Source: Candidatus Micrarchaeota archaeon (GTDB taxonomy: Archaea > Micrarchaeota > Micrarchaeia > Anstonellales > Bilamarchaeaceae). Taken from it: a stretch of 57,391 nt of DNA. The notes beneath the pieces are model-generated. The model had not been told where the DNA came from. It saw only the letters and a program-made list of their open reading frames with translations, and searched no databases. Below, in pieces: positions 26,284 through 40,116 of the stretch. Position numbers and translations under genes: made by a program. The stretch is taken from positions 1-57,391 of the forward strand of contig JAZDDV010000021.1 of NCBI GenBank assembly GCA_043809425.1, in the 5' to 3' direction. The number at the start of each line of letters is the position of its first letter. Positions within the stretch are counted from its first letter, which is position 1.

Positions 26284-27195
26284 TCAATGTTTGATTAGGA
26301 ACTCGTAAAGGTCCTGATTGAATCGTTTTGGTTGCTCTATCTGCGGATAGTGGGAAAGCCCTTCGTAGATATTTATCATTGCGCTGGGAACCCGTTCTCT
26401 TATCAGCTCAACTGATTTTTCATTTACCAGCGAATCGCTGCCGCCGCGGACAACAAACACAGGCACCTTCACCTCACTCAGCAATGCTCCGATGTCATTG
26501 CCTGTCTCGAACATCGCGCGCAGAGAAAGAAGCGACGCCTGTGCGTTAAGGTCAAGCGACTCGTTGAGATACTTGGCGAATTCCGCGAATTTCATGTCCT
26601 TGCGAAGATGCTTCAGGTAAAGATAAAGTGGCGCGACTGCCGGGTCAGTTTTTGCAAGCTTGGCAATTATGCGCAGACCGCCAAAAAGACTGGTGACACC
26701 CTGTGTTCTCTCAAGAACAATCATCAACGGCTGCACAAGATGTGCAAAGCGGAATGTTTCCAGCGGGCTGGAAACTGCCGGGCTTACAAATGACATGGAA
26801 CGTACGGCTGCTTGCATCTCATGATGAAACGCCGTTGCTATCAGACCGCCCATGCTGAATGCAACGGTATCTGGGTTTGTTATGCGAAGATGCGCCAGCA
26901 ATTCCGCGTTATCCCTGGCACAGCTGTAAAGATAGGTGGAAGGCTTGTCACCGTCCAGAGTTGACTGGCCATAGCCGCGGTTATTGGTGAAAAGCAAGTT
27001 GAAATCCCAGAGGCTTTTCTCCTGCAATTTCCAGATGCCGTTTTTGGTCATCCAGCCATTGAAGAAAACAATTGTCCTGGGCTTCCCTCTGTCCAGATGA
27101 ATATATTCAAGAAGAGTTCCGGAGGACGTAGAAAACTTTTTCTGAGGGGCTGCTGCTGCCTCTGCCAGTTTCGCATTTTTGGGTGCAAACCGCAT
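26284..27195 (-). CDS. alpha/beta-fold hydrolase
   Basis: 303 aa with the nucleophile elbow AFSMGG, a late GGSD acid region and GLSHYP histidine. It has its own TTTTATATATTT box about 25 nt upstream. Confidence 0.75.
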   Translation of the reverse strand: MRFAPKNAKLAEAAAAPQKKFSTSSGTLLEYIHLDRGKPRTIVFFNGWMTKNGIWKLQEKSLWDFNLLFTNNRGYGQSTLDGDKPSTYLYSCARDNAELLAHLRITNPDTVAFSMGGLIATAFHHEMQAAVRSMSFVSPAVSSPLETFRFAHLVQPLMIVLERTQGVTSLFGGLRIIAKLAKTDPAVAPLYLYLKHLRKDMKFAEFAKYLNESLDLNAQASLLSLRAMFETGNDIGALLSEVKVPVFVVRGGSDSLVNEKSVELIRERVPSAMINIYEGLSHYPQIEQPKRFNQDLYEFLIKH

Positions 27196-27499
27196 AATAT
27201 ACTAGGAATAGTTAAATATATAAAACTAACGAAAATACATCTTTGAACACCGTATTATACCCATCTAAGGATTTAGATGCAAAATTACCATGGTGATGGG
27301 ATGGCCGGACTATCGTTGAAAGCAGTTAAGGAGGATGAATTGGCGTTGCTGAAAAAGTTTACTGTACAGCTTGGCAAGGTCAATGGTGAACTGGAGCAGG
27401 TCTTGGCTAACCTGAAACACCCTGAGGAACTGAAGGATAAAAAGGGGCTCACTCCAGCTGAAAATGTCACGCTGATCGTGGAAATAAAAAAGAAAAAAA

Positions 27500-30400
27500 T
27501 TATCTTTTCGTTACGCAACGATCCCTGGTGTCATGTATGTCACACACCAGGCCGTACTGTCTGCAGTCTATTTCTTCATACTTCACAGTGCCGTCTGGGC
27601 TGCTGCAGGTTGCCTCAATCAGGATGTTTTCATCCTTGCATTTGTCATAATATTTGACCTGATGCCCTGCTGGCCCGACAATGACTGGCTGCCTGCTGTA
27701 GAGCCAGCTGCCCCCCTGCAGGTTGGCATCTGTATCTGTGCAGTTGCCTGAAGGAATGTTGTCGCATTTTCCATCAAGACAGCCGCATGGCTCGTAATCA
27801 GCAGTAACTGGGTTCACGCACTCATAGGTGCTGCAGTCAACGATCTCATGGCCATAGGCCTGGCCGTTGAGTATGCAGGTCATCTCATCCAGCTTAACAA
27901 TATCCAGGCACTGGTCGCTTCTGGTCACCTTGTTGCCATTCTCGTCATCAAAGGTTATGGAGCCCTTTACGAACACCCCGTTATTTGGTTGGCCGTAATC
28001 GCTCTCAACGCAATTGAAGTTCTTATAGGCGCAGGCACCTCCGGTACCACCTCCGGAAAAACAGACGCACGGCCCTGTTGAGCCAGTGGTCGCGTCCGTG
28101 CAGGACTGGGCACCGCAGTCGACCTTTAGCTTCTCAATCTCGAAATTATCCTTGCAGGCAGCTTCTGAAAGCTCCGTGACACTATCGCAAGAATCATATT
28201 CCATGTAGCTTGGGAAACCTGCAAAGGTCGAATTGAAAATCCCTCTGGAAGGCTGGGTCACATCTGCATCAAAACAATAGGCATAGGCAGCGCTTTCATT
28301 GCAGGCGCTGTTGTTGCAATCGCAGGGAACGTAGACTGGCTTGGGTTGGCCGTTTTCGTCGCATCTCCATTCCTTCAGCATCTTACTCTTTTCCTGCTCG
28401 GTTCCGCCTGCCCCGTCCACGCAGAAGTCTTTGTAGACAGTTATGCTACTGCTTATTTGGTCCTTCATCAGCACAGTCGACGCCATAAAGATATCCTTGC
28501 CGCTTTTCATGAGCTCAGCATCGCGGTCATTGCAGCCAATGGCAACAGGCTTCAAATCACAGGAGCCGTTGGCACAAACGCAGGATTCATAGGCATCTGT
28601 GGGGCCCACACGGCAAGTGGACTTGGTGCAATCATAGGGCCTGATGAAAGGCTGGGAGCCAAATGGCGGAACATCGCGGCAAGCATACTCCTTAAGCATC
28701 GTAGAAGAGGAGCAGTTATCCGTATAGACTTTTTGAAGAAGAATCTGCAATGGGTCTGCCCCATAGACATTATAGACAACATAGGATTGGTAGAACATGT
28801 AATCCGGGCCAGGGTCATAGTCATTGCACTTTTCAGTCACCGCTGTAAAATCATAATCAAGTTCTGCCTTTTCAACAAGGTCCTTGGCAATCACAATCCC
28901 GCAGAATGGCGCGCCGGTTGCAATAAACGGATTAAGGATTCCGCAGTCCTGCTGCGGGTTCATGGTTGACGAGAAGATGACGGGAAGATTATTTGAAAGC
29001 TGGATCTGCTTGGCACTATAGGTATACCTGTTTCCGCTGCTCTCATTAAGGCAGCATTTTACAGGCAACGCTGCGATTATATCTGCATCAGCATCGCTAA
29101 GATTTGCAGTTGGATACAGTCTTTCATAGGTTTCTCCTGAACTGGCATTCCTGTAGGTGGCATTTGTCATGCCACTAAGCTGGGAACAAAGATAGCAGGC
29201 AGAAGATATCACATCCTTCGGGCATTGCTGGCCAGTTGTTCCTGCAATACAGATGGAACCATCATCGCAAATCATGTCCTGGGCAACACAGCCAAGTTCT
29301 TTCTGGCACTGGACACAGCGAATCTTGCCAGTTGCCTGGTCAATGGCAGGATTTGTCTCATTAACCGCGGCTACCCTTATTGTCATTTTTATCGGCTCGC
29401 CCTGGACAGCTGTACGGCTGCCAAGCTCAAATGCACAGAATTTGGGCCCAAAGGAAAACTGATTTTGCATCAAATTACTACCAACCGTACTACCTGTGCC
29501 CTCTACGCCGACATACTGAATGCCCATCACGCCAGCCTGCCTGAGAGCATCCTTGTTCTTGTAGAATTCAGTGAAAAAGTCCTGATAAAATGCTCTATCG
29601 TTTTCTGGGTCTGGCCAATTGCCGCCCTGTCTGACGTTCAGGAGCACAAGCACTGGCAGGGTGCCGGCGCCCTGAACTTTCTGTATTTCCAGTATTGCCT
29701 TTTTGGATTCGTTTGCAATATCGCTGGCAATGGTTGCTGCACGCTCGATGCTTGTCATTCTGGCCCATTGAAGACTTGCAACATTAGGGCCGACTACGCT
29801 GTTATTGCCCAAATCATAGCGAAGAACTAGAACTTTAGCGTTGTAAGCGAGCATCGGCTCATTCCAGCCTGTTGAGCCTATGGTCACTGCGGGAAGACAC
29901 TTGTCGCATTCAACCCGTACATCACCTAGCTTGTCAGCAGGGACGATTGTTATCACCGGACCAAGGTTATTTGGAAAGCCGCGGCTGTTGGTCGCATAGC
30001 CAGGTCCATATTCATTCTCCTGGTAATTAAGCATGTCCATCCGGTTTTCATAGTCAACTACTGGGATTACACCATTCTCAAGATAATTTATCATGCTTAC
30101 ATCCAAGGTTATTCTTGACTGGGAAGGCATATATTCCTCCTTACAGTAACTACCATAAACACCCATGCCAGGATTTTCTTCGCAATATTTCTTCTGGTCT
30201 TCTATGTTCTTGTCAAATGTCGAGCCGTTTTCATAGGCAAGCGTCTGGTAGGTGCAGGGCTCACACCAGCCGTATTCTTTTATCTCAGGAAGTTTGCCTT
30301 CATTGTCAAGCTTGCAGTCCCCGACGCTGTAAATTTCATAGAAATAGCGGGTGCGCAGTGCGTAAACAGTATTATACGCATTGTCGCCTGCAGAAGAGAT

Positions 30401-32524
30401 TTTATACCAGTCCTCGGGCTGCACTATTTTAATGTCTTCTGTGTCCTGCTGGCCATAGACATTCCGATTTTCAAGAAGGCGATAGGGCGCGCCAAGCACA
30501 AGGGGTATGTTTCCATAGGTGGAACGTTCATCTTCGATATTGATGTCCTCCTTGTTTTTGATGTAGGCCAGAACCCAGGGGCTTCCTGCCATTATTATGT
30601 CAAGATCGCCAACCTCCCGCTCGTCGCCGTCTGAATCTGTTTGAATATGCGTAAGCGCTTCCTTTGCTGCATCAAGGACAAAGAAGTCAAATACGCGCAG
30701 CGCAAAGCCATCATTGTAGTTTCTGACGTCGCGCTTTACATAGTCAACATCTTCCTGCATGTTGCAGTTTTTCACAAACTCCCAATCGCTTATGCTCTTA
30801 TCTGCAACAGCATAGCCGATTACACGCCTGCTGCCATCAGAAACGTCACGGCCAAAGAAATACATGTAGGCTGCAGGAGGATAGGGATTCTGGTCGCCTC
30901 CGCCGGCGAGATTTGTAGCATAACACATGCCACCGCCACCTTGGGTAAATCCTCCGGGGCATTTGCCATCATTTGATGCTACCCTGTTGGCATCAAAGCT
31001 TGTTGGAATCATCTCTATGGGATACCATGAGTCGCTGGGTATGAGGTAATCCTTTATGTTGTCTTCAGGGTACGCTCTTTCATCCGGAGTCCAATCAGTT
31101 GGGCCAAGCATCACCGAGCTTTCCTCTTTACTGCACCAGCCAGTTGGTTCACAACCAGAAGCCAGTGTTTCGGGTTGTGTTGCCTGATGCGCTGGGTTAT
31201 CGTTACAGAATAAACCTCTTCTGAATTGCCAGGCCTCAATCGCCAGTACGCCCAAATTATCTTCGCCTGAGCCCTCGCCGCAATCTCGAGACAATTCTTC
31301 CGTATCATAGGCATCTGAGTCAAGAACGTAGCGTGTTGGGTAGACATCCACAGAATCATAGGTGAGCTTAAGGCTATCACCGTCATGCGATACTTTTGTA
31401 ACCGGCAGACAGATCACGACCTTGTGTCCCTGCTGGAACTCAACATAGCAGTAGGAAGGCACCTCTGCATTGCTATCGTTTTTGATTGCAAAGCCGCGTT
31501 TGTAGGAATCCCGGCTGCAATAGGCCGAGAGGCATTCCGCGCCTCCGCATTCAAATGGCGCTGCCTTGTCTTCCTTGAACATGGTATCAAAATAGGAAGC
31601 TGAGAGTGCATTGGCATAATAGCCGGTGGAAGCGCCACCCCAGGGAAACAGCCTATAGCTTGTGAATTCTTCGTGCCAGTCATCATCAAGACCATAGAGG
31701 AAAGGATAAGTATTGCGGTCGACGGTGCCGGCCGTGGCATTGTCCAGGCAATCGCTTGGAGGAATAACATCCAGAGGTTTGTAATTCACATCATTATATA
31801 GCATGTCAGCATTGCAGTGCTCGGAATTGGCAGCGCAGGGCAGATAATAATTCATATACCTGTCAATGGAACCGCCACTGTTCAGACCGCAGAACTTGTC
31901 GCTGATGGGGAAATAATACTCGTAGGTGTTATACTCGTTAAAAGATGAGCCTGCACCGAAGCGAATGTTGTTTATGGCAACGCCAGAGCGTTTCATGATT
32001 TTCTTCAGCTCCTCATCCATCGCACGCATCCGACAATCAGCATGGTAGAGGTTTATGCTGATTTCCTGCGTCTGTATTGTTGGTCCGCCACCAGAACCCT
32101 CTTCCAGCTCTTCCTTTGTAGGCATTGGCGGAGGGAACCTTGGCCGGTAGAGGAAATCTCCGCAGACCATGGCAACGCAGTCAGGACGCACGCACTCCAG
32201 GTCTTTTTTCTCACCGCAGACAGGAACGACCATGTACTCTGTTACCGGTACGTCGAAGGTCTTTACTGTTCCGTCAGGCAGAACACGCGGTACTTTCATT
32301 GTTCCTTTATCAATGGCAATGGTGCATGTCCAGTTTGTCTTGTCACAGGATTCGGTGGTGTAGGAGTAAGTGGGGCTTTTGCTCAGAACGCATTTTCCTG
32401 TTCCGCTTGCCGGAAACGCCGCATCGCGCTCGCAGCAGGTTGTTTTCTCCGCCTCATTCAGACAGCCTGCCAGAAGCAGCAGGGAAATGAAGGCAGCTAG
32501 GAAAATAATCGTTGTTTTTTTCAT
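27500..32524 (-). CDS. giant secreted cysteine-rich protein (1674 aa), last gene of the membrane-paralog operon
   Basis: The signal peptide ends at a lipobox-like LLLAGC. Cysteine content is very high throughout. The C-terminal 443 aa consist of five tandem Cys modules. Its ATG overlaps the stop of the upstream gene (TAATG). Confidence 0.85.
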   Translation of the reverse strand: MKKTTIIFLAAFISLLLLAGCLNEAEKTTCCERDAAFPASGTGKCVLSKSPTYSYTTESCDKTNWTCTIAIDKGTMKVPRVLPDGTVKTFDVPVTEYMVVPVCGEKKDLECVRPDCVAMVCGDFLYRPRFPPPMPTKEELEEGSGGGPTIQTQEISINLYHADCRMRAMDEELKKIMKRSGVAINNIRFGAGSSFNEYNTYEYYFPISDKFCGLNSGGSIDRYMNYYLPCAANSEHCNADMLYNDVNYKPLDVIPPSDCLDNATAGTVDRNTYPFLYGLDDDWHEEFTSYRLFPWGGASTGYYANALSASYFDTMFKEDKAAPFECGGAECLSAYCSRDSYKRGFAIKNDSNAEVPSYCYVEFQQGHKVVICLPVTKVSHDGDSLKLTYDSVDVYPTRYVLDSDAYDTEELSRDCGEGSGEDNLGVLAIEAWQFRRGLFCNDNPAHQATQPETLASGCEPTGWCSKEESSVMLGPTDWTPDERAYPEDNIKDYLIPSDSWYPIEMIPTSFDANRVASNDGKCPGGFTQGGGGMCYATNLAGGGDQNPYPPAAYMYFFGRDVSDGSRRVIGYAVADKSISDWEFVKNCNMQEDVDYVKRDVRNYNDGFALRVFDFFVLDAAKEALTHIQTDSDGDEREVGDLDIIMAGSPWVLAYIKNKEDINIEDERSTYGNIPLVLGAPYRLLENRNVYGQQDTEDIKIVQPEDWYKISSAGDNAYNTVYALRTRYFYEIYSVGDCKLDNEGKLPEIKEYGWCEPCTYQTLAYENGSTFDKNIEDQKKYCEENPGMGVYGSYCKEEYMPSQSRITLDVSMINYLENGVIPVVDYENRMDMLNYQENEYGPGYATNSRGFPNNLGPVITIVPADKLGDVRVECDKCLPAVTIGSTGWNEPMLAYNAKVLVLRYDLGNNSVVGPNVASLQWARMTSIERAATIASDIANESKKAILEIQKVQGAGTLPVLVLLNVRQGGNWPDPENDRAFYQDFFTEFYKNKDALRQAGVMGIQYVGVEGTGSTVGSNLMQNQFSFGPKFCAFELGSRTAVQGEPIKMTIRVAAVNETNPAIDQATGKIRCVQCQKELGCVAQDMICDDGSICIAGTTGQQCPKDVISSACYLCSQLSGMTNATYRNASSGETYERLYPTANLSDADADIIAALPVKCCLNESSGNRYTYSAKQIQLSNNLPVIFSSTMNPQQDCGILNPFIATGAPFCGIVIAKDLVEKAELDYDFTAVTEKCNDYDPGPDYMFYQSYVVYNVYGADPLQILLQKVYTDNCSSSTMLKEYACRDVPPFGSQPFIRPYDCTKSTCRVGPTDAYESCVCANGSCDLKPVAIGCNDRDAELMKSGKDIFMASTVLMKDQISSSITVYKDFCVDGAGGTEQEKSKMLKEWRCDENGQPKPVYVPCDCNNSACNESAAYAYCFDADVTQPSRGIFNSTFAGFPSYMEYDSCDSVTELSEAACKDNFEIEKLKVDCGAQSCTDATTGSTGPCVCFSGGGTGGACAYKNFNCVESDYGQPNNGVFVKGSITFDDENGNKVTRSDQCLDIVKLDEMTCILNGQAYGHEIVDCSTYECVNPVTADYEPCGCLDGKCDNIPSGNCTDTDANLQGGSWLYSRQPVIVGPAGHQVKYYDKCKDENILIEATCSSPDGTVKYEEIDCRQYGLVCDIHDTRDRCVTKR
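27503..28831 (-). repeat. five tandem ~80-99-aa cysteine-module repeats within the giant protein
   Basis: Each unit begins C-x-[DE]-x-D (CNDYD, CNDRD, CFDAD, CVESD, CTDTD), followed by D-x-C, C, and [VIYP]-[DP]-C. Units 4 and 5 have identical Cys spacing (positions 1, 35, 46, 60). I count about 36 Cys in 443 aa. Confidence 0.7.
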
Positions 32525-33600
32525 TAGACCACCTTGGAAACCATGCGCAGTATGTCATAGGCCTCTTCGCCGAAAAGATACATGAAATATCTTATGGAGA
32601 CAATGGTAACAAAAAGCGCGACCAGCGGATGGATGAGCAGGGAGGTATAGGTTCTGCCAAGCTGCTGCCCGAGTCCTCCGCTTGAAGTCGAACCGGGGGC
32701 GCCGCCCTCCTCTTCGACAACATAGTTGACATAGGCAACTGCAGATGAATAGGTCGGGTAGCAGAAGTTTCCTCCTGTAATCGCAGGCCTGGGCTGCGCT
32801 GGCGGAAGCTTCACAAAACCCGGGTCGGTTACAATAAACACATAGGGAAACACAAGGTAAAAGCCAATTGCAATGGAGATGAAAAGCGAACCTATGGCGC
32901 GCGTTGGCTGGATGGCACGCAGCACAATGCCAACGGGAAGGAAAAGCGAAAGCATGTTTGCATCAATGTAGGAGAGGAAGAATATCTGGGCATTGAGAGC
33001 AATCAGTGCGTTTGTGGCAAAGGTGTTTATGAACCTGGCTGATTCCATGGCCTTGTAAAGATCGCTGACATAGGAACCGGAGAATACCGGGAAACCAAGA
33101 AGGTTGAAGTTGAGGTTCAGCAGATTGAAGTACCAGTTGGCATTGTTAACCATGTCAGCCTGAAGCTCCGCGATGCTGTTTGCCTTGTCCATGAGCTTGC
33201 ATTTTGCAACTGAAATGGCAGAATGGAAATCAGATGTGGGTATCACAATCTTGCCGCAGGAAACCGTACCGCTGATCATTTGATTCATCATTACTGTGGC
33301 GCCGCCGACTATGATAACGAAAAACACTATGAACACGACTGTTGCCATGGACTGGTACATCTCGGTTTTTGCAGAAGTCTCAAGCTCCCTGAGATTGAAT
33401 GCCTTCCCGATGCTATAGAGCGTGCCGTTGAATATCAATGCCACGAAAAGCGCAAGGGCAACAAACGGAAGCCAGGTCATCACACCAAAGACGTCCGCAA
33501 CAAACGTGCTGATCTGCTGCTGGGTGCTTTCCTCTGCCTGCGCTGCCGGCAGGAACAGTGCCAGAAGCAACAGCACCAGTACCAAACGTCTTGTATTCAT
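32524..33600 (-). CDS. polytopic membrane protein, paralog family member 6 (358 aa)
   Basis: Signal peptide, and the shared motifs NLRELETSAKTEMYQ, PVGIVLRAIQPTRAIGSLFISIAIGFYLVFP and a C-terminal FGEEAYDILRMVSKVV. Confidence 0.8.
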   Translation of the reverse strand: MNTRRLVLVLLLLALFLPAAQAEESTQQQISTFVADVFGVMTWLPFVALALFVALIFNGTLYSIGKAFNLRELETSAKTEMYQSMATVVFIVFFVIIVGGATVMMNQMISGTVSCGKIVIPTSDFHSAISVAKCKLMDKANSIAELQADMVNNANWYFNLLNLNFNLLGFPVFSGSYVSDLYKAMESARFINTFATNALIALNAQIFFLSYIDANMLSLFLPVGIVLRAIQPTRAIGSLFISIAIGFYLVFPYVFIVTDPGFVKLPPAQPRPAITGGNFCYPTYSSAVAYVNYVVEEEGGAPGSTSSGGLGQQLGRTYTSLLIHPLVALFVTIVSIRYFMYLFGEEAYDILRMVSKVV

Positions 33601-33602
33601 AG

Positions 33603-34688
33603 TTACACCATTTGCGATAGTTTGCTTAAATCTATCTCCTCACCATACATCCTTGCAAAGAATCTCACCGAAGCAATGGCCCCTGCCAGGGCCAGGCTCG
33701 GAAGCAGGAATGCCCCTACAAAGCTGCGGGCAGTAAGCTCAAGAACATCGAAAAAATCCCTTGGCTCATTATCAAAGAAATCATTCACGAGCCGAGTATC
33801 ATCTGTGTAGACAGAAGTGCCAAGCGCTCCGAAAACAGAGCCATAGCCAAACTCGCTCATGCCTGAAACTTCCTGGAATTTGTCCTTTTCCTTTGCGGCA
33901 TACTCCACGAAAAGCCCGGCATCCCCGGGCTTGTGGATACCCGGGTCATGGAAAATGTCTGCACCGCTGGAAACTATGGAAAACATGGAAAGCAGCAGCG
34001 GATAGACGATGAAGAAAGAAAGGCAGACGGCAATGAGCAGCGAGCCAAGCGGCCTCAGGTAGGGAAGCGAACGAACGATGATTGCGGCAGGAAGGAAGAA
34101 AATTATAAAACCGCGTACTGCAAAAAGGAAAATGAAAAGCGAGTTAAGCGCAGACATGAGATAGAATATGGTTGTGCCGAAAAGCATGTTCATCGTTCCC
34201 ATGCGACCGCCATAGTTTGCAAGCGAGGAGGAAATGGTCCCGCTGAAACCGAATACGCACCAGAGGTCGCAGTGAAATTGGTTTCTGTGCGACAGTATCG
34301 TATAGGCAGAGGCAAAATAGCGCACCACCCTTACCGTATTATGCGAATAGGAAACCGCATTTATAAGATAGTTATGGCCTTCCTCGAAAATGTTTGCCGC
34401 CCCGGTAGGCGGCTGGTCAACCAGCTCGCGCACGCTGTCCACATTAATACCGCAGAAGAAATTAATGCAGGTAAAGAGAAGCGCGATGGACATTATGGAG
34501 ATGACGACCTGAACAACTTCTGTCTTCACCCAGGCAAGCATTTTTGGGTTGTTGGTCACGGTTGCAAAGTAATATACCAGCACAAAAACTATGACTGCAA
34601 AAAATGTCGCGGTACCGGTGATCTGGAGAACCGGACCGTAGAGAAAGCCGTTCAGGAAGCTGGCCTGGCAGACGTCCACGATCATCAC
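33603..34688 (-). CDS. polytopic membrane protein, paralog family member 5 (361 aa)
   Basis: Shared motifs MLAWVKTEVVQ, PAAIIVRSLPYLRPLGSLLIAVCLSFFIVYP and a C-terminal YGEEIDLSKLSQMV. It has a 4-nt overlap with the upstream gene. Confidence 0.8.
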   Translation of the reverse strand: MMIVDVCQASFLNGFLYGPVLQITGTATFFAVIVFVLVYYFATVTNNPKMLAWVKTEVVQVVISIMSIALLFTCINFFCGINVDSVRELVDQPPTGAANIFEEGHNYLINAVSYSHNTVRVVRYFASAYTILSHRNQFHCDLWCVFGFSGTISSSLANYGGRMGTMNMLFGTTIFYLMSALNSLFIFLFAVRGFIIFFLPAAIIVRSLPYLRPLGSLLIAVCLSFFIVYPLLLSMFSIVSSGADIFHDPGIHKPGDAGLFVEYAAKEKDKFQEVSGMSEFGYGSVFGALGTSVYTDDTRLVNDFFDNEPRDFFDVLELTARSFVGAFLLPSLALAGAIASVRFFARMYGEEIDLSKLSQMV

Positions 34689-35698
34689 ATCAGCCTCCCC
34701 AGTGCACTGGCATCGATTTCAGCACCTGCTGCCATTGACAGGTACTTTATGCTTGTAGAAAATATGAACAGGTAGATGATGCTGAAAAGCGTGCCTTTCA
34801 CAAGAACAAGGAATAGTGGTTTTTTGATATGGGCAGCCATATCATTCAGAAGACCAAGCGCGGCATCATCATTGCTGCTAAGCCCGGTCATGCTGCCAAG
34901 GGAATTCGGAGTGTCACCTGGGCTGCATCCGGCGAATTTAGATTGGGGTTCTCCGATACTAAATGAGGGTGAGAGGAAACCAGTTTTAGAATTGAACTCG
35001 TCTAGGTAATTGTAGTCGCTATTCTTTTCCGCAAACGCGTCTGCCGTGGGGTCTATGAAAACAATTGACAGGGGCAGGATAAGGTAAAGCGCTGCACCGA
35101 TGGCAAGCAAAAGGCCGCCTGCTGCCCGGGTGATCTTGAATGTCCTGAGAATTATGCCTATGGGCATTATTATCGTAAGCGCAACATCCGAGATGCTAAG
35201 CAGGGTTTTGAGCGTGTTTAATTCCACGATGCCGATGCTGACCACTGTCTCGGTCGTCGTCACGGCAGGCGAAAGCGCTGAATAGCCGCCGCAGCCAGAC
35301 ATTGTAACCGTGATCATCATTATGTTGCAGGAAAGGGTTTTGGAACCTTCAATCGATACCTTCTCAAGTTCGGTAAGTTTGGTAAAGTATGCCTGCAGCA
35401 TCGTAATGTCTGTGCTTATCTTGGCCTTGGCATCGCTTTGCAAAGTATCTCCAACCGTAACTGTCAGGCCTGCGAATACGCTCAGCATCACTATGAGAAA
35501 CGCAATCTGGTAGACCTCGTCTTTTGCAGTTATCTGAAGCTCCTGGATACCGAAACCCATGCCCACTGCATAGAGAATGGCAATGAATACAACTGCTGCA
35601 ACTATGGCTATGGCGGCAGTGGTCATCCAGCTGCCTGCCGCAAATGATAGCGAGGAAAGCAAAATCACTGCCAGCAGGATTATTTGGATTCTCATCAT
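34685..35698 (-). CDS. polytopic membrane protein, paralog family member 4 (337 aa)
   Basis: Signal peptide, with motifs IQELQITAKDEVYQ, PIGIILRTFKITRAAGGLLLAIGAALYLILP and a C-terminal AGAEIDASALGRLM. It has 4-nt overlaps on both sides. Confidence 0.8.
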   Translation of the reverse strand: MMRIQIILLAVILLSSLSFAAGSWMTTAAIAIVAAVVFIAILYAVGMGFGIQELQITAKDEVYQIAFLIVMLSVFAGLTVTVGDTLQSDAKAKISTDITMLQAYFTKLTELEKVSIEGSKTLSCNIMMITVTMSGCGGYSALSPAVTTTETVVSIGIVELNTLKTLLSISDVALTIIMPIGIILRTFKITRAAGGLLLAIGAALYLILPLSIVFIDPTADAFAEKNSDYNYLDEFNSKTGFLSPSFSIGEPQSKFAGCSPGDTPNSLGSMTGLSSNDDAALGLLNDMAAHIKKPLFLVLVKGTLFSIIYLFIFSTSIKYLSMAAGAEIDASALGRLM

Positions 35699-37821
35699 AA
35701 CACCTTTGCCAGGCCAGGTATCTCTATATCGCCGCCGAGCATCTTTGAGAAAGATCTGATGAACATCACCACCACAAGTGTGTTGAAGATTGGGAGAAGG
35801 TAGGCAGGAACCATGAGTTTCGCAACGTTTATCACCTCTGGTTTTCCAACATTTCCTTCAATTATTGTTGAGAAACCAGCCTCACCCCCCTTCGGCTGAG
35901 GCGACTTGGAACAAACCGTTGGGCAATCAACCCTTAGGGGCGGGTCGTAAAGGTAGGCCTCTTCAGCCACCGCGCACCTAACACAACCCTCGGGGTCACT
36001 CGGGTAGTAATAGACGCAAGACTCAAGGGGATCGGCTATGTTAACCGGACAGGAATAGGCATTGTCGCATTTTTCATGGGCAAGGTCTGATGCCGCCTCA
36101 ACGATGTCTACCTTTTCCAAGCCGCGCAGGCCTGGCAACACAACTCTGCAATCAAAACGGGAATAAAGGCAATTATAGCCAGTGACCGCTTCCCTATACT
36201 GGTGACTCAGGAACTCGGAATAGGAATCAGGATCAGTTGCCTCCAGATCACTACTGCATACGCCGAGGAAATTGGCATCGCCCTTGCAGGATGTGTAATG
36301 ACCTGGTGCCTGGGAAGTGACCTCGTCGCTTACCCAATAACCCGCCAGAGGATGATAGAAATTCCATGAACCGATATAATCGCAATTGCTCTTAAGCGCT
36401 GGTTTTATCTTGCATGCTGTCGGGCAGTTTGCCATTTCGGTAGTTTTTATCTGGTATTCGGCGGGTTTGGACGAATCTATGGGAACAAACCTGTAAAGTT
36501 TGCAATCCTGGCGAAGCCAGCTGCACGCCCTTTGCACATCCTTGCTTCCGCAAAGAGGCGAACCATAGGGGTAGGGAAGTTCGCGGCATTCTGCCGGACA
36601 GACAACTGGCTTTGTAAAATCGATTTTGAGATTGCCGTCCTTATCATAGCTGTAAGGGCTTGCATCTCCCCCTGTGAGCGAAGGAGTCATGGCAAGCCAT
36701 TGACAGGACTGGAAAACGTCTCCGTTCGGAGCTGTAACTTCAGGAACCCGGCCGCTTGCAAGGTCGTCGGCCCACCCTGTTGCATACTGGCTGCAGCCTG
36801 AAGCCGAAAGGGCGTTAACAAGGTCGTTTTGCAAAAAGTACTGCTCACCGGAAGACGGGTCTATGAACCCCCTGTTGCCGGCTCCGGCGACAGGTTCAAT
36901 CTTTGGGACGATTGTGCCCTTATAGGCATAGGGCGCTTTAAGCGCGCATTCTTCAGGGCAGTCCGCACCACCGGCGGCGAAAAGCTTATCGCCATAGAGC
37001 GTAAGCTTCAGCGAAGCCATGTCAAACACGTACATCATTGGCATGGCAAACATTATGCCAAAGGCAATGGCAATCAGCAGGCCGCCAAGCTTGCGCGAAA
37101 AGAAAAATGAGCGCAGGAATATTCCGAAAACGAGAATGAGCGGACCGACGTTGAAGGCGAATTTTTCCATGAAAAATTTCTGCGCGTTCATGGATGCGAG
37201 AAGGTTCTGGTACTGCTCAAACACAACACCGTGGCGCTCTGCATCCAGAAGAGACTCGGCACCGGTTGTGAATGAAAGCGATGCCTGGAGACAGGGCCAT
37301 GGCAGGATCATCGCGGAGCAGGAGGTTGTGAAACGCCGGCTGGCGTCCTCCAGGCTGTCAACCATTGTGTTAAGCGACTCCTTGGCACCTTGTTTGGAAA
37401 CGTCAATCATGTTCTGCAGGTAAACAGTCGTAACAGTCTGCATGCAGTCATCGCCGCAGTTTGCGAGCGCATCTATGCGGCTGCTCTTTGCTATTTCCAC
37501 AAGGGCGACATTTGTTGCGGTTAGGACGCTAACGGCAACAACAACGATTATGGCTGTTGCGATGACCTGCGAGAGCTCTGTTGTTGCCCAGCTCTTCAAG
37601 TCAGGCATGTCAAAGCCGATGGAAAGGGCATAGACAAGGGCGATTAAAACAATGGAGAAACCAATGACGAGCAGGATGGCTGACTGCCAGTTGCCTATCA
37701 AACGTTTTGATTCCTGGATGAATTTTGGTTCTGACGAATCTCCCGGGTTCGTGGTGCAGCTCACCGCGTAGACCGAGGAAACGAAGAAAATGAGCAGCAG
37801 CAGTAATGCAAGTTTTCTCAT
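35695..37821 (-). CDS. polytopic membrane protein, paralog family member 3 (708 aa) with ~390-aa Cys-rich ectodomain insertion
   Basis: Signal peptide, with motifs MPDLKSWATTELSQ, FGIFLRSFFFSRKLGGLLIAIAFGIMFAMP and a C-terminal LGGDIEIPGLAKVL. The insertion at about aa 271-660 has four CPxxC motifs (CPEEC, CPAEC, CPTAC, CPTVC). Confidence 0.8.
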   Translation of the reverse strand: MRKLALLLLLIFFVSSVYAVSCTTNPGDSSEPKFIQESKRLIGNWQSAILLVIGFSIVLIALVYALSIGFDMPDLKSWATTELSQVIATAIIVVVAVSVLTATNVALVEIAKSSRIDALANCGDDCMQTVTTVYLQNMIDVSKQGAKESLNTMVDSLEDASRRFTTSCSAMILPWPCLQASLSFTTGAESLLDAERHGVVFEQYQNLLASMNAQKFFMEKFAFNVGPLILVFGIFLRSFFFSRKLGGLLIAIAFGIMFAMPMMYVFDMASLKLTLYGDKLFAAGGADCPEECALKAPYAYKGTIVPKIEPVAGAGNRGFIDPSSGEQYFLQNDLVNALSASGCSQYATGWADDLASGRVPEVTAPNGDVFQSCQWLAMTPSLTGGDASPYSYDKDGNLKIDFTKPVVCPAECRELPYPYGSPLCGSKDVQRACSWLRQDCKLYRFVPIDSSKPAEYQIKTTEMANCPTACKIKPALKSNCDYIGSWNFYHPLAGYWVSDEVTSQAPGHYTSCKGDANFLGVCSSDLEATDPDSYSEFLSHQYREAVTGYNCLYSRFDCRVVLPGLRGLEKVDIVEAASDLAHEKCDNAYSCPVNIADPLESCVYYYPSDPEGCVRCAVAEEAYLYDPPLRVDCPTVCSKSPQPKGGEAGFSTIIEGNVGKPEVINVAKLMVPAYLLPIFNTLVVVMFIRSFSKMLGGDIEIPGLAKVL

Positions 37822-38804
37822 GCGAACGCCCTCAGAGCCTTGTTAATGGCAGACATGAATGTCACTATCAGCGCTATGGAAAGATTGGGCAGGAAAAACG
37901 CCATGGGCAGGATTTTTCCGACATCCCAGAGCGAAACCCCAAAACCCGTTGAATCGCAAACAGGAGCGCCAAGTTCTGTGTTGATTGGCTTATCCTCAAG
38001 AATGCCCTGGTAGGAGGTGCAGTCTGCCAGCGAGATTGAATCATACATCAAAAAGCTGAAGTTTACGAAGAACGGCAGCAGAGCATAGAAAGCAATGCAG
38101 AGCGCAATCAGCAGGTTGCCGCTGTTTCTTGTGGGCGGAAAAAAACGGAGCAGGAACGCAGCAGGAAGGATAAATTTTATTACGAATTCCTTTGTAAACT
38201 GGAGCATCAGGCTTTGGATTGAAATGCTCACCAGCGCGGGGATGGCATAGGTATTGGAAAGGGTCTCGAGCTGCATTGCATAGACCTTTTTGTAGGCCTC
38301 CATCATTGTCGTGAAGGTGCCTTCAAGTATCGCTCCGGCGGTGTAGGCCCAGCCAGAATCCATTGTCATTTTTATCTGGCCATCGACATAGAAGGAAATC
38401 ATGGAGGCTGTTTTTGCCTGAAGCGTTTTTGTGCAGGAGATCGCGTTGTCGACTGGGCCAAAGGCTGAAGAATAACACGTGCCGGTGACAGGGAAATTGC
38501 TGCGGGAAAGATCTATCAGTTCGGTGGAAAGCAGACAGGAAAAACCGACAAGGCTTGCAAAAGTCACCAGCAGCGCAATTGAAATCGCAAGATGATAGGC
38601 CTCGTCTTTTGCAAGCATGCTGAGCTGTGCATTGTGAAAACCGGTTCCAAAAACATAGGCAATGGTGATTCCAAGAACCGAGATCGCTATGAGAACATAG
38701 AGAAGGGTGGCCTGGTCTCCAAGAATGTCTGCAGTGGTGACCAGGCAGGACTGGGCAAAGGCAATGAATGAAAACAGTAAAAGTGCCAATAGTATTTTTC
38801 TCAT
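37818..38804 (-). CDS. polytopic membrane protein, paralog family member 2 (328 aa)
   Basis: Signal peptide, with motifs NAQLSMLAKDEAYH and PAAFLLRFFPPTRNSGNLLIALCIAFYALLP. Its C-terminus diverges (no GGE motif). Confidence 0.8.
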   Translation of the reverse strand: MRKILLALLLFSFIAFAQSCLVTTADILGDQATLLYVLIAISVLGITIAYVFGTGFHNAQLSMLAKDEAYHLAISIALLVTFASLVGFSCLLSTELIDLSRSNFPVTGTCYSSAFGPVDNAISCTKTLQAKTASMISFYVDGQIKMTMDSGWAYTAGAILEGTFTTMMEAYKKVYAMQLETLSNTYAIPALVSISIQSLMLQFTKEFVIKFILPAAFLLRFFPPTRNSGNLLIALCIAFYALLPFFVNFSFLMYDSISLADCTSYQGILEDKPINTELGAPVCDSTGFGVSLWDVGKILPMAFFLPNLSIALIVTFMSAINKALRAFA

Positions 38805-40021
38805 ATCAACCTCTCCATTCCTGAGATATAGGCTTCGCCGCCAAGTGCAACGGCCACAGACCTGGTTGCTGTCACAGTCATCAGCCCTATGAGCAAGACG
38901 TCAATGTAGGATATGACCACAAGCGAATTGACCTGGTAGAGGAAATCAAACACTGCCTCATAGGCGGCATCAACACTAAAGCCTGCACCGGCAGAGGCAA
39001 GAATTTGGTCAAGGGCAAGAAGCCCGATGCTTGTTACGGTGCCAAAGAAGGCGACCATAAGCTGGTAAATCCAAATGCTGAGGAAGAAACAAACTTCGAA
39101 AAACGGGCCGCAGGGGATTGACTGGATGGTGGCATAGATGATTTCGCCCATGGAAAGCAGGACGCGGATTACAGGATATTCGCAGATGGACTCTATTATT
39201 GTATTGGCATTGTACTTTGGCGGAGAAACCGCGTCAAGGTCCAGGGTTGGAACCTCGATGCCTCCCATCTGGCCGTGGAATATGCTTATGATGATAATCG
39301 AAAGGGGAAAGAACAGGTAGACGCCAAGGGAAATGGCGATGAGCGTGGTGCCGACCTGCCTTGAAAATGGAATGACCCTTAGTATGAAACCCAGGGGCAA
39401 CAGCACCGAAAGCCCATAGGCCTTGAAAAAGGCAAGCAGCACGCCTATTGATTCATAGATAAGAATCACGTTTATCAGGCCGCTGGCGCCTGCCTGAAGC
39501 GCCGAGCTAAGCGGGTAGAGGCCGCCATAGCGCGTAAAGCCATAGCCGAACATAAGTAGGAAACCAAATGAGTAGGAAACGCCATAGGTTGATACCGCAC
39601 GAAGACGGCTCATCCCCTTGATGACGTATTCGTAGGCAGTCACCGCGGCTGCCTGCTGCTCTGCGACGGTTGAAGCAGCATAGTCAAAATAATCAGCGCT
39701 CTGCGAAACGACCTGTTTCTCTGCAAGCGCAGACGTTATGATTTCCACAATATAACCCGATGCCCCTACCACCGAGATTACGATTGCCAGCAGCAGTATG
39801 GCTGCTATGAGCTCGCGCGTCTCAATCTTTACCCAGGCATCAAGCTGGGGCATGGAAAAGGAAACCGCCGCCATCTTTGTAGCCGCAAGCATTATTACAA
39901 CAAGCATAACGACAACGGGGAATGCCTTGAAATAATCAGACTGCAGAAAATCATCAGCAGATATTGAAAAAACTAAAGGCGCAAGTAGCAGCAAGAACAG
40001 TGGGATAAGCGACAGGCGCAT
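38801..40021 (-). CDS. polytopic membrane protein, paralog family member 1 (406 aa from ATG 40021), first gene of operon
   Basis: I chose the ATG at 40021 (MRLSLIPLFLLLLAPLVFS signal peptide) because an ATTATATAC TATA box lies 30 nt upstream. The 467-aa ORF-track version would run through the promoter and into the divergent gene. Motifs: MPQLDAWVKIETRE, PLGFILRVIPFSRQVGTTLIAISLGVYLFFP and a C-terminal LGGEAYISGMERLI. Confidence 0.75.
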   Translation of the reverse strand: MRLSLIPLFLLLLAPLVFSISADDFLQSDYFKAFPVVVMLVVIMLAATKMAAVSFSMPQLDAWVKIETRELIAAILLLAIVISVVGASGYIVEIITSALAEKQVVSQSADYFDYAASTVAEQQAAAVTAYEYVIKGMSRLRAVSTYGVSYSFGFLLMFGYGFTRYGGLYPLSSALQAGASGLINVILIYESIGVLLAFFKAYGLSVLLPLGFILRVIPFSRQVGTTLIAISLGVYLFFPLSIIIISIFHGQMGGIEVPTLDLDAVSPPKYNANTIIESICEYPVIRVLLSMGEIIYATIQSIPCGPFFEVCFFLSIWIYQLMVAFFGTVTSIGLLALDQILASAGAGFSVDAAYEAVFDFLYQVNSLVVISYIDVLLIGLMTVTATRSVAVALGGEAYISGMERLI

Positions 40022-40116
40022 AGCAAAAGATACGGCCAGAATGTATATAATCTTTCTGTTGATCTGAAGCGGCGGCAGGCATAATGATTTAAATTTGAAG
40101 CAGTCCAAATTCATAC
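40022..40116. promoter_or_regulatory. 95-bp bidirectional promoter region between the membrane-paralog operon and the 1127-aa gene
   Basis: The minus-strand TATA ATTATATAC (40043-40051) is 30 nt from the ATG at 40021. The plus-strand TATA TTTAAATT (40088-40095) is 29 nt from the ATG at 40117. Both transcripts would be leaderless. Confidence 0.55.

What the first reader, a model, noticed from the sequence alone, without database searches (positions are those of the whole stretch)
27500..32524. 1674-aa secreted cysteine-rich giant protein with five C-terminal tandem Cys modules
The protein starts with a signal peptide ending in a lipobox-like LLLAGC and is densely populated with Cys. The last 443 aa (nt 27503-28831) resolve into five consecutive modules. 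Each opens with C-x-[DE]-x-D and then has three further Cys at conserved spacing: D-x-C, then about 10-19 aa to the next C, then 12-16 aa to [VIYP]-[DP]-C. Modules 4 and 5 have identical Cys positions (1, 35, 46, 60). I count about 36 Cys in these 443 residues. So many paired Cys imply an extracellular disulfide-bonded array, which is unusual for archaeal surface proteins. The N-terminal ~1200 aa have no motif I recognise. Being last in the operon suggests it is the exported cargo or tip of the membrane complex.
Basis: seen in the sequence. Interest (0 to 1): 0.75.

Follow-up and report, generated by a model that had tools for sequence, protein, structure and literature searches.

The report
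Giant cysteine-rich archaeal surface lipoprotein
This is a 1,674-residue, probably disulfide-rich, membrane-anchored surface protein of a tiny symbiotic archaeon (Micrarchaeota); it closes an uncharacterised operon of six related membrane proteins found widely in Micrarchaeota genomes, and it alone carries a tail of five copies of a small six-cysteine module found on surface proteins of other ultra-small archaea and at least one ultra-small bacterium.

Summary
The ORF at 27500-32524(-) encodes 1,674 aa with an N-terminal hydrophobic leader, a canonical lipobox (L-A-G-C21) and 83 Cys. The last 442 aa form five tandem modules: a profile of 232 modules from other proteins scores 120.5 bits, against at most -0.4 bits in 300 shuffles.

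The modules are not EGF, knottin or dockerin. They are divergent copies of an unnamed six-Cys, all-beta module (consensus CTDSDGG...YTDxC...LxEYxC...C...CxxGxC). It occurs in 2-12 copies in most of at least 95 other protein clusters, from DPANN archaea and one CPR bacterium. It has no Pfam, NCBIfam or PDB match.

Residues 1-1232 belong to a separate, equally unannotated family seen in about 70 further loci (49 in GTDB genomes, nearly all titled Micrarchaeota). In 44 of 48 loci the gene follows six paralogous polytopic membrane-protein genes in a fixed order. None of the 68 other family ORFs examined has the module tail.

Best reading: an archaeol-anchored ectodomain subunit of a Micrarchaeota-specific envelope complex, extended here by a disulfide-stapled stalk or adhesion array. 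The biochemical function remains unknown. The "exported cargo" idea is unlikely, and Cys-rich surface proteins are common among the DPANN module proteins.

The parts
27500..32524 (-). Gene for the 1674-aa Cys-rich lipoprotein (stop codon at 27500-27502)
   Evidence: ORF listing and translation. Identical to NCBI V1492_01945, annotated as a hypothetical protein.
32462..32524 (-). N-terminal hydrophobic leader plus lipobox (aa 1-21, ...LLLAGC)
   Evidence: Sequence and hydrophobic segment 1-26. G20 and C21 are kept in at least 90% of 37 homologues. Lipobox definition taken from PMC12462473.
28829..32461 (-). Conserved core (aa 22-1232) of an unnamed Micrarchaeota family. It has 46 Cys, including four CxxC pairs (754/757, 873/876, 1070/1073, 1110/1113), and the motifs CxAMVCGDF, DRYMNY and GWCEPC.
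   Evidence: 49 genome loci and 34 metagenome loci. Alignment A6. No Pfam, PDB or NCBIfam hit. The AF2 model was unusable, pLDDT 33.
28535..28828 (-). Module 1 (aa 1233-1330, 8 Cys)
   Evidence: Foreign-module profile, iE 5e-12; Cys map.
28277..28534 (-). Module 2 (aa 1331-1416, 6 Cys, canonical pattern including C-x-C-N-N-S-A-C)
   Evidence: iE 2.2e-10; all six canonical Cys columns occupied.
28013..28276 (-). Module 3 (aa 1417-1504, 8 Cys)
   Evidence: iE 6.8e-7; 27% identical to module 4 by blastp.
27743..28012 (-). Module 4 (aa 1505-1594, 8 Cys). This is the module that was modelled.
   Evidence: iE 1e-10. AF2 gave pLDDT 76.7 and pTM 0.65, with seven beta strands.
27503..27742 (-). Module 5 (aa 1595-1674, 6 Cys, canonical pattern)
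   Evidence: iE 2.8e-12; all six canonical Cys columns occupied.
27482..27499 (-). Oligo-T tract (TTTTTTTCTTTTTTATTT) directly after the stop codon; likely the archaeal terminator that ends the operon
   Evidence: Sequence read. That oligo-T tracts terminate archaeal transcription is general knowledge, not tested here.
32524..33600 (-). Membrane paralogue 6 (358 aa). Its stop overlaps the giant gene's ATG (TAATG).
   Evidence: Positional orthologue in 44 of 44 loci.
33603..34688 (-). Membrane paralogue 5 (361 aa)
34685..35698 (-). Membrane paralogue 4 (337 aa)
35695..37821 (-). Membrane paralogue 3 (708 aa), with a roughly 400-aa ectodomain between TM4 and TM5 that holds most of the protein's 28 Cys
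37818..38804 (-). Membrane paralogue 2 (328 aa)
38801..40021 (-). Membrane paralogue 1. The likely true start is the ATG at 40021 (406 aa, MRLSLIPLFLLLL...). The ORF finder's TTG start at 40204 would overlap the divergent gene.
   Evidence: Orthologues are about 400 aa.
40022..40116 (.). 95-bp divergent intergenic region with A/T-rich TATA-like boxes (tttaaat, attatatac); presumed to hold the promoters
   Evidence: Sequence read. The promoter function is inferred.
40117..43500 (+). Divergently transcribed 1127-aa gene: N-terminal hydrophobic leader, small ECxxC ectodomain, one TM (aa 169-195), then about 930 aa rich in K/E/A/Q that look like cytoplasmic coiled coil. It is a syntenic companion of the operon.
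   Evidence: A long divergent ORF sits at the same place in 29 of 37 loci, and many start with a hydrophobic leader followed by an EC[IV]xCE motif.

Best explanation
The gene encodes a lipid-anchored surface protein. It is presumably exported by the Sec pathway and attached by archaeol at Cys21.

Its 1,211-residue core is the extracytoplasmic subunit of a Micrarchaeota-specific envelope complex. The membrane part of that complex is made from six different but paralogous five-TM proteins encoded just upstream. The non-lipobox Cys of the core are probably nearly all in disulfides.

In this lineage only, a C-terminal array of five six-Cys (or eight-Cys) all-beta modules has been added to the core. 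The same module builds tandem arrays in many DPANN proteins and one CPR protein that look secreted or surface-bound. Here the array most likely acts as a rigid, disulfide-stapled stalk or adhesive extension. It would carry the distal end of the complex toward or through the S-layer, to contact a partner such as a host surface, a glycan or a matrix.

Shown: the leader and lipobox, the Cys content and parity, the five modules and their family membership, the operon and its conservation, and the uniqueness of the fusion.

Inferred: lipidation, disulfide formation, physical association with the six paralogues, and the stalk or adhesion role.
For: 1. Export and anchoring. The N-terminal hydrophobic leader and the L-A-G-C lipobox are conserved across the family. 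The lipobox definition, and the report that the AliA lipidation enzyme occurs in DPANN, come from PMC12462473.
2. Disulfides. The protein has 83 Cys, that is 1 plus 82. 37 of 40 family ORFs have an odd Cys total (naive binomial 1e-8). The modules have 8, 6, 8, 8 and 6 Cys. Two otherwise conserved Cys columns (36/37 and 35/37) are both Ala here, which looks like co-loss of a pair. There is no CxxCH motif in the translation.
3. Complex. In 44 of 48 loci exactly six paralogue genes precede the family gene. Position k best matches window paralogue k in 41-44 of 44 loci. Start and stop codons overlap through the operon. An oligo-T tract follows the giant gene. Predicted topology puts the Arg-rich loops inside and the Cys-rich loops outside.
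4. Modules. The foreign-module profile scores 120.5 bits against at most -0.4 bits in shuffles. 95 other clusters carry the module in up to 12 copies. 82 of the 91 module proteins that start with Met have an N-terminal hydrophobic segment. A minority also carry surface or adhesion-type domains: PKD, CARDB, SLH, dockerin, Mucin2_WxxW, Kre9_KNH, T9SS sorting domain. The AF2 model is all-beta at pLDDT 76.7.
5. Add-on. The 68 other family ORFs examined end 0-45 aa after the core, against 460 aa here. Base composition of the module region matches the rest of the contig. In L058 and L062 a stand-alone lipoprotein with a Kazal domain and six modules lies on the same strand, three genes downstream of the family gene in L062.
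Against: - No fold or biochemical activity could be assigned to the core. The AF2 model failed (pLDDT 33) and profiles hit nothing in Pfam or PDB.
- No direct evidence links the giant protein physically to the six paralogues; co-operonic does not mean co-complex.
- The adhesion or stalk role of the module rests only on its domain context. Most module proteins carry no other recognisable domain, and the module model has no structural neighbour.
- The add-on is seen in a single MAG contig with no close relative, so selection for it cannot be shown.
- Conserved CxxC pairs could bind metal instead of forming disulfides.
- Archaeal lipidation has been demonstrated only in Haloferax (PMC12462473).
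Confidence: 0.5

Rival explanations
1. The core is an extracytoplasmic enzyme, for example a glycan- or peptide-processing alpha/beta-domain hydrolase acting on envelope or host polymers. The six paralogues would be a transporter for its substrates or products, and the modules would be substrate-binding or spacer domains.
For: - The segment around aa 800-1040 alternates hydrophobic beta-like stretches ending in acidic residues (GVIPVVD, VITIVP, VLVLRYD, PVLVLLNV, GIQYVG). The low-confidence AF2 model shows beta/alpha alternation there, with pLDDT up to about 64.
- Some module proteins carry enzyme or carbohydrate-related domains: Peptidase_M64, NPCBM_assoc, dockerin.
Against: No Pfam, NCBIfam or PDB similarity, even with a 37-sequence profile. 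No catalytic motif was identified. The model confidence is too low to call a fold.
Confidence: 0.2
2. One reading: the giant protein is the exported cargo (secreted substrate) of a dedicated secretion machine formed by the upstream membrane proteins.
For: It is the last gene of an operon of membrane proteins.
Against: - It has its own N-terminal leader and a conserved lipobox, so it should need no dedicated exporter and should stay membrane-anchored.
- No ATPase or other energising component is conserved in the cluster.
Confidence: 0.08
3. Many of the Cys coordinate metals (Zn knuckles, or Fe-S or Cu sites) rather than forming disulfides, which would make this a metal-binding or redox protein.
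For: Four conserved CxxC pairs in the core (754/757, 873/876, 1070/1073, 1110/1113), invariant in 37 sequences except C1073, which is kept in 35 of 37.
Against: - The location is extracytoplasmic.
- Even Cys parity holds across a family whose totals range from 37 to 77.
- The canonical module has no His and its Cys spacings are unlike zinc ribbons.
- There is no CxxCH haem motif.
Confidence: 0.1
4. It is the S-layer protein or its membrane anchor.
For: It is a large, acidic, exported protein with 17 N-x-S/T sequons.
Against: The identified Micrarchaeota S-layer protein SLP_Mh carries the PF05123 S-layer domain and has almost no sulfur-containing residues (bioRxiv 10.1101/2021.04.28.441871). 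The giant protein has no PF05123 hit and is 5% Cys.
Confidence: 0.03

Closest known systems
Unnamed six-Cys 'CxDSDGG' tandem module of DPANN archaea and a CPR bacterium (examples: P0013, 6 copies; P0008, 12 copies; Ca. Bilamarchaeum dharawalense VVC04524.1 with 10 matched stretches)
   Same: - Shared signature: C-x-[DE]-x-D, then D-x-C, then L-x-E-x-x-C, then C, then C-x-x-G/S-x-C.
- Tandem head-to-tail arrays in proteins that look secreted or lipid-anchored.
- Profile E-values of 5e-12 to 7e-7 per module.
   Different: - The window's copies are divergent: the G-G after D-S-D is lost.
- They are longer, 80-98 aa against about 66-78 aa.
- Three of the five carry an extra Cys pair (C-x-C).
- They are fused to a large unrelated core instead of forming the whole protein.
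Unnamed Micrarchaeota Cys-rich lipoprotein family (P0002-P0007; 49 GTDB loci; all annotated 'hypothetical protein')
   Same: Lipobox, about 40 conserved Cys columns, the motifs CxAMVCGDF, DRYMNY and GWCEPC, and the same position after six paralogous membrane-protein genes.
   Different: - It is the only member with a C-terminal extension: 460 aa, against 0-45 aa in the 68 others.
- It lacks the family's conserved Cys at two columns (A1122 and A1228).
- It is at most 36% identical to any other member over the best-matching segment.
EGF-like, knottin and dockerin / thrombospondin type-3 repeats
   Same: Small extracellular modules with six Cys. The acidic C-x-D-x-D(-G) start is reminiscent of DxDxDG calcium loops; this resemblance is recalled from memory and was not tested.
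   Different: - No Pfam hit to EGF, dockerin or TSP_3, even at E<=10.
- The module is 2-3 times longer and is predicted as a seven-strand beta structure.
- No Foldseek match in PDB or BFVD.
Mycobacterial Mce transporters (six Mce paralogues MceA-F in one operon forming a heterohexamer); analogy from general knowledge only
   Same: Six paralogous envelope proteins encoded in a fixed order in one operon, together with accessory exported proteins. This suggests a hetero-hexameric envelope assembly.
   Different: - No sequence similarity: no MCE Pfam hit.
- The paralogues here are polytopic (about 5 TM), not single-pass.
- No permease or ATPase genes lie in the cluster.
- The organism is an archaeon.
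Haloferax-type archaeal lipoproteins (AliA/AliB-dependent archaeol thioether anchoring; PMC12462473)
   Same: A canonical lipobox after a hydrophobic leader. AliA is reported to be present in DPANN.
   Different: Lipidation has not been shown in any DPANN archaeon. AliA was not looked for on this contig.

Membership tests
DPANN/CPR six-Cys 'CxDSDGG' module (unnamed, no Pfam model) | Significant match to a profile built from modules of other proteins | tested here: met
   Five domains with iE 5e-12 to 7e-7. Total 120.5 bits, against at most -0.4 bits in 300 shuffles. An independent P0013-only HMM hits the same five places.
DPANN/CPR six-Cys 'CxDSDGG' module (unnamed, no Pfam model) | Six conserved Cys columns (present in 386 of 426 reference copies) | tested here: met
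   Modules 2 and 5 occupy all six columns. Modules 1, 3 and 4 occupy five in the HMM alignment, with the sixth displaced by an insertion that carries C-x-C...C.
DPANN/CPR six-Cys 'CxDSDGG' module (unnamed, no Pfam model) | Head-to-tail tandem arrays in proteins with an N-terminal export signal | tested here: met
   Five contiguous copies. The reference proteins carry up to 12 copies, nearly all at least 2. 82 of the 91 that start with Met have an N-terminal hydrophobic segment.
Micrarchaeota Cys-rich lipoprotein family (unnamed) | Full-length homology of aa 1-1232, including the conserved Cys scaffold and motifs | tested here: met
   The family HMM aligns from residue 1 to residue 1214 of the window protein, covering profile positions 1-1242 of 1254. 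29 invariant Cys in 37 sequences.
Micrarchaeota Cys-rich lipoprotein family (unnamed) | Lipobox at the end of the N-terminal leader | tested here: met
   L-A-G-C21. G20 and C21 are at least 90% conserved.
Micrarchaeota Cys-rich lipoprotein family (unnamed) | Gene lies immediately downstream of six paralogous membrane-protein genes in a fixed order | tested here: met
   Window layout. 44 of 48 loci show the same arrangement, with positional orthology.
EGF-like / knottin | Match to EGF-type profiles, and a module of about 30-40 aa with three disulfides | tested here: not met
   No Pfam hit at E<=10. The modules are 80-98 aa with seven predicted strands. No Foldseek hit.
Dockerin / thrombospondin type-3 calcium-binding repeats | Match to Dockerin_1 or TSP_3 profiles (paired DxDxDG loops) | tested here: not met
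   No Pfam hit on any module. Only the C-x-D-x-D start resembles such a loop. Calcium binding was not tested.
Archaeal S-layer protein (PF05123 type, as in SLP_Mh) | S_layer_N domain and low content of sulfur-containing amino acids | tested here: not met
   No Pfam hit. 5% Cys. The properties of SLP_Mh are taken from bioRxiv 10.1101/2021.04.28.441871.
Archaeal lipoprotein (AliA/AliB pathway) | Thioether-linked archaeol on the lipobox Cys | not testable with these tools
   Only the sequence motif can be checked (met). Lipidation needs Triton X-114 partitioning or mass spectrometry.
Multihaem cytochrome | CxxCH haem-binding motifs | tested here: not met
   The four CxxC motifs are CEPCT, CDKCL, CVQCQ and CYLCS. 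None is followed by His.

The most novel reading that the evidence does not exclude
The eight-gene locus encodes a previously undescribed Micrarchaeota (Microcaldota) envelope machine. Its components would be a divergent coiled-coil membrane protein, six paralogous 5-TM proteins and the giant disulfide-rich lipoprotein.

In this reading the six paralogues form a pseudo-sixfold ring in the membrane. The lipoprotein forms the large extracytoplasmic body beneath the S-layer. Together they would be the symbiont-side docking or exchange complex used to take lipids and metabolites from the host.

A candidate counterpart is the unidentified 21-nm barrel seen by cryo-ET in the envelope of the cultured relative ARM-1 (PMC11329633). 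In that case the five-module tail of this protein would be a lineage-specific host-recognition tip.
Probability: 0.12. Interest if true: 0.85.

Novelty: new variant of a known kind. Interest (0 to 1): 0.55.

Why it matters
DPANN archaea depend on physical contact with hosts, yet almost none of the envelope proteins that mediate this contact are known.

This finding identifies three things:
- A six-Cys beta module that recurs in surface proteins of DPANN archaea and at least one CPR bacterium. It has no Pfam model and no structure, so it is a good target for a new domain family and for structure determination.
- A conserved, completely unannotated seven-gene operon (eight genes with its divergent partner) found widely in Micrarchaeota genomes. 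Its fixed set of six paralogues points to a hetero-oligomeric envelope complex.
- A natural fusion that places the module array on that complex's giant lipoprotein. This gives a hypothesis for which end of the complex faces outward.

If the complex proves to be the host-contact or uptake machine, a long-standing question about DPANN symbiosis becomes directly testable. If not, the result is still a clean annotation of three 'hypothetical' families.

Tried and rejected
- **Pfam, NCBIfam and PHROGs.** Scans of the giant protein, its single modules, the six paralogues and the divergent gene gave nothing significant. Scanning 37 family members individually against Pfam gave no consistent hit.
- **PDB sequence and profile searches.** Searches with the canonical array P0013, the 37-member family profile and the paralogue profile gave nothing.
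- **Word-indexed homologue searches.** The search with the C-terminal 443 aa found nothing. The search with the family profile found no new members. Both were superseded by the exhaustive profile search and the genome and metagenome scans.
- **AlphaFold2 of the core.** With 1200 aa and a 7-sequence alignment the model reached pLDDT 33 and is unusable, so no fold search was run on it.
- **Foldseek with the module model.** Best E was 2.4 against PDB and 1.5 against BFVD (TM 0.35 or lower among the 50 best-ranked matches shown for each library), so there is no structural neighbour. The cyanovirin and jacalin-like lectin rows are noise.
- **Search for a close relative carrying the same fusion.** None was found in the metagenome contigs.
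- **Rejected readings.**
  - S-layer protein.
  - Multihaem cytochrome, because there is no CxxCH.
  - Assembly chimera or recent foreign insertion, because GC and GC3 of the module region lie within the contig's range.
  - DNA-level repeat artefact.
  - The fungal 'CysRRep' repeats of bioRxiv 10.64898/2026.06.07.730663, which are a different thing.
- **Literature.** Searches of the held library found no description of this operon or of the module.
Full report
**1.

The ORF at 27500..32524(-) is a 1674-aa ORF with an ATG start. It is identical to an NCBI entry, 'hypothetical protein V1492_01945 [Candidatus Micrarchaeota archaeon]', on a contig of 57,391 bp, so the window is that whole MAG contig. 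The other genes on the contig are ordinary chromosomal ones: GyrA, FtsZ, HisRS, GlnA and a KaiC-like ATPase.

The N-terminus MKKTTIIFLAAFISLLLLAGC has a hydrophobic leader and ends in L-A-G-C21. This fits the lipobox consensus [LVI][ASTVI][GAS]C quoted in PMC12462473.

The protein has 83 Cys (4.96%), and 36 of them lie in the last 443 residues. The five modules start at residues 1233, 1331, 1417, 1505 and 1595. The modules hold 8, 6, 8, 8 and 6 Cys, not four each.

**2. The periodicity is far beyond chance**

- An HMM made only from the six modules of an unrelated protein (P0013) hits the giant at exactly the five module positions.
- A profile of 232 modules from 94 other proteins finds five domains (iE 5e-12 to 7e-7). 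The total is 120.5 bits, against a maximum of -0.4 bits in 300 composition-preserving shuffles of the C-terminal region.
- There is no DNA-level tandem repeat. Module pairs are at most about 27-41% identical over the aligned stretches, so the copies are old.
- GC and GC3 of the module region (0.51 and 0.595) lie within the range of the other genes on the contig. This argues against a chimera or a recent foreign insertion.

**3. What the module is**

It matches no Pfam model, even at E<=10, so it is not EGF, knottin, dockerin or TSP-3.

An exhaustive profile search of 1.84 billion cluster representatives found 95 other proteins at E<=1e-3. Matched stretches per protein reached 12. Re-scanning them with the foreign-module profile found 446 copies in 94 proteins, nearly all with at least two.

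Their consensus is CTDSDGGKNIYTKGTVTV...YTDSC..STTLKEYYC....ETYDCPSGYGCKNGAC. Six Cys columns are all present in 386 of 426 copies, and C4 and C6 are missing together in 12 copies, which hints that they pair.

The named members come from Woesearchaeota, Nanoarchaeia/Nanoarchaeota, Bilamarchaeaceae and Ca. Bilamarchaeum dharawalense (Micrarchaeia), and from one CPR bacterium (Peribacteraceae, with an SLH domain).

Of the 91 module proteins that start with Met, 82 have an N-terminal hydrophobic segment, and the median Cys content of the 95 proteins is 5.9%. A minority also carry surface or adhesion-type domains: PKD, CARDB, SLH, dockerin, Mucin2_WxxW, Kre9_KNH, a T9SS sorting domain, PG_binding_1.

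Even the clean canonical array P0013 hits nothing in Pfam, NCBIfam or PDB.

AlphaFold2 of module 4, using the five window modules as the alignment, gives a seven-strand all-beta model (pLDDT 76.7, pTM 0.65). It has no Foldseek neighbour in PDB (best E 2.4) or BFVD (best E 1.5).

The window's copies are divergent members. Modules 2 and 5 keep the six-Cys pattern. Modules 1, 3 and 4 have an insertion with an extra C-x-C...C.

**4. The N-terminal 1,232 residues are a second, separate family**

The word-indexed search found only six relatives. All end where the module array begins.

Pattern scans then found 49 loci in GTDB species genomes. Nearly all are titled Micrarchaeota, Micrarchaeia, Anstonellales or Bilamarchaeaceae; a few are titled only 'archaeon', and one 'Candidatus ainarchaeum sp.'. 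A further 34 loci came from JGI metagenomes.

Family ORFs are 1131-1762 aa with 37-77 Cys. In a 37-sequence alignment, 29 Cys are invariant and about 40 columns are at least 80% Cys, including the lipobox Cys.

No Pfam, NCBIfam or PDB similarity exists, even at profile level. The AF2 model of the core failed (pLDDT 33), so its fold is unknown. A beta/alpha-alternating stretch near residues 855-1040 is only a hint.

**5. Evidence for disulfides**

- 37 of 40 family ORFs have an odd Cys total (naive binomial 1e-8). This is what one lipid-modified Cys plus paired others predicts, and the totals move mostly in steps of two between 37 and 77. The window protein has 1 plus 82. The sequences are related, so the P value overstates independence.
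- The window protein lacks Cys at two otherwise conserved columns: Ala1122 where 36 of 37 have Cys, and Ala1228 where 35 of 37 have Cys. This looks like co-loss of one disulfide at the core's C-terminal end. It also shows that C1233 is module 1's own first Cys.
- None of the four conserved CxxC motifs is followed by His, so this is not a haem protein. Metal binding by some CxxC pairs remains possible.

**6. Genomic context**

The giant gene is the last gene of a 12.5-kb operon (40021 to 27500, minus strand). Start and stop codons overlap along it (TAATG, ATGA), and an oligo-T tract follows the stop directly.

The six upstream genes encode paralogous membrane proteins (18-24% identical to paralogue 6 in alignment A3). 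Each has a hydrophobic leader, about five TM segments, an invariant Glu at the start of TM2, an Arg-rich LPxGxxLR...TR..G.LLIA loop, and in five of the six a C-terminal G-[GE]-[ED] tail. Paralogue 3 has a roughly 400-aa ectodomain that holds most of its 28 Cys.

None of them hits Pfam, NCBIfam, PHROGs or PDB.

In 44 of 48 loci exactly six such genes precede the family gene. Position k best matches window paralogue k in 41-44 of 44 loci. So there are six distinct orthologous groups in a fixed order.

A divergently transcribed gene encodes a protein of about 1100-1370 aa where full-length products were called: a hydrophobic leader, an ECxxC motif, one TM and a long charged cytoplasmic region. 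A long divergent ORF accompanies the operon in 29 of 37 loci. At least two MAGs carry two copies of the family gene, each preceded by six paralogue genes.

**7. The module tail is unique to this protein**

All 40 GTDB family ORFs end 0-38 aa after the core profile, and all 28 metagenome family ORFs end 0-45 aa after it. The window protein continues for 460 aa. No close relative carrying the fusion was found.

In two related metagenome loci (L058 and L062), a separate lipoprotein of 470-471 aa lies about 1.1 kb downstream of the family gene on the same strand, three genes downstream in L062. The L062 copy has an L-S-G-C lipobox, a Kazal domain (Pfam E 1.8e-8) and six canonical modules. Stand-alone module-array lipoproteins therefore exist in Micrarchaeota next to this operon, and a gene-fusion origin is plausible. 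Two of 86 loci is too few to claim a functional link.

**8. Interpretation**

The best-supported reading has two parts.
- The protein is an archaeol-anchored, disulfide-rich ectodomain subunit of a Micrarchaeota-specific envelope complex built from the six paralogues.
- In this lineage it is extended by a stalk or adhesion array of five DPANN-type modules.

What is shown: the leader and lipobox, Cys parity, module homology, operon conservation, and the uniqueness of the fusion. What is inferred: lipidation, disulfide formation, physical association with the paralogues, and the adhesion or stalk role.

The rivals fare as follows.
- An extracytoplasmic enzyme cannot be excluded, because the core fold is unknown.
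- Metal-binding Cys are possible for the CxxC pairs.
- The S-layer reading is rejected. The known Micrarchaeota S-layer protein has the PF05123 domain and almost no sulfur-containing residues (bioRxiv 10.1101/2021.04.28.441871).

**9. Novelty**

Neither the module, nor the core family, nor the operon is described in the databases searched or in the held literature.

As a kind of object, a lipid-anchored, disulfide-rich, repeat-bearing surface protein is familiar. I therefore rate it a new variant of a known kind.

The most novel reading not excluded is that the locus encodes the symbiont-side docking or exchange machine of Micrarchaeota. NCBI taxonomy now places Micrarchaeia in phylum Microcaldota, named after the cultured ARM-1. 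An unidentified 21-nm barrel was seen by cryo-ET in ARM-1's envelope (PMC11329633). Nothing here links the two, and the pattern scan returned no locus titled as ARM-1 or Microcaldus, which is weak evidence. I put that reading at about 0.12.

Noticed in passing
window 32524-40021 (-) and 40117-43500 (+): Six paralogous 5-TM membrane-protein genes in a fixed order, plus a divergent gene for a 1127-aa protein with a hydrophobic leader, one TM and a long charged (coiled-coil-like) region. Together with the giant gene they form an eight-gene locus conserved across most Micrarchaeota loci examined. None of the genes hits Pfam, NCBIfam, PHROGs or PDB.
   Followed up: yes
L062 8131-9543 (+) and L058 8107-9522 (+): A stand-alone lipoprotein of 470-471 aa lies about 1.1 kb downstream of the family gene on the same strand. 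The L062 copy has an L-S-G-C lipobox, a Kazal-type inhibitor domain (Pfam E 1.8e-8) and six canonical six-Cys modules, and sits three genes downstream of the family gene, after a double zinc-ribbon gene and a 188-aa gene.
   Followed up: partly
window 27277-27657 (+): A 126-aa ORF (MAGLSLKAVKEDELALLKKF..., charged and coiled-coil-like) runs convergent to the giant gene and overlaps its last 52 or so codons by about 158 nt. It has no Pfam hit. It may be a real small gene whose ORF is over-extended into the giant gene, or it may be spurious.
   Followed up: partly
window 17482-21798 (+): A second large predicted surface protein (1438 aa) with Laminin_G_3, NosD / right-handed beta-helix and CarboxypepD_reg-like domains. 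This is the type of LamG surface protein I recall (from memory, not checked here) being proposed for host interaction in ARMAN-like Micrarchaeota.
   Followed up: no
L011/L034 (MAG JAKEGJ01) and L018/L027 (MAG JBNLBN01): Two MAGs each carry two copies of the giant-lipoprotein gene on different contigs, and each copy is preceded by six paralogue genes. The locus can therefore be duplicated within one genome.
   Followed up: partly
window 38801-40204 (-): The mechanical ORF start (TTG at 40204, 467 aa) of paralogue 1 overlaps the divergent gene's start. The ATG at 40021 gives a 406-aa protein that begins with a hydrophobic leader and matches the orthologues' length of about 400 aa.
   Followed up: yes
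L001-L003, downstream of the family gene: In three other loci the giant gene is followed by a double zinc-ribbon (DZR) gene, a gene of about 190 aa and a Lon_C protease gene. In the window the downstream genes are instead an alpha/beta hydrolase (26284-27195) and an unannotated 400-aa ORF.
   Followed up: no
window 5101-6264 (-): A 387-aa ORF gives a weak, sub-threshold Pfam hit to the formin FH2 domain (E 8.6e-4, 19 bits against a cutoff of 34.8). This is probably a low-complexity or coiled-coil artefact.
   Followed up: no
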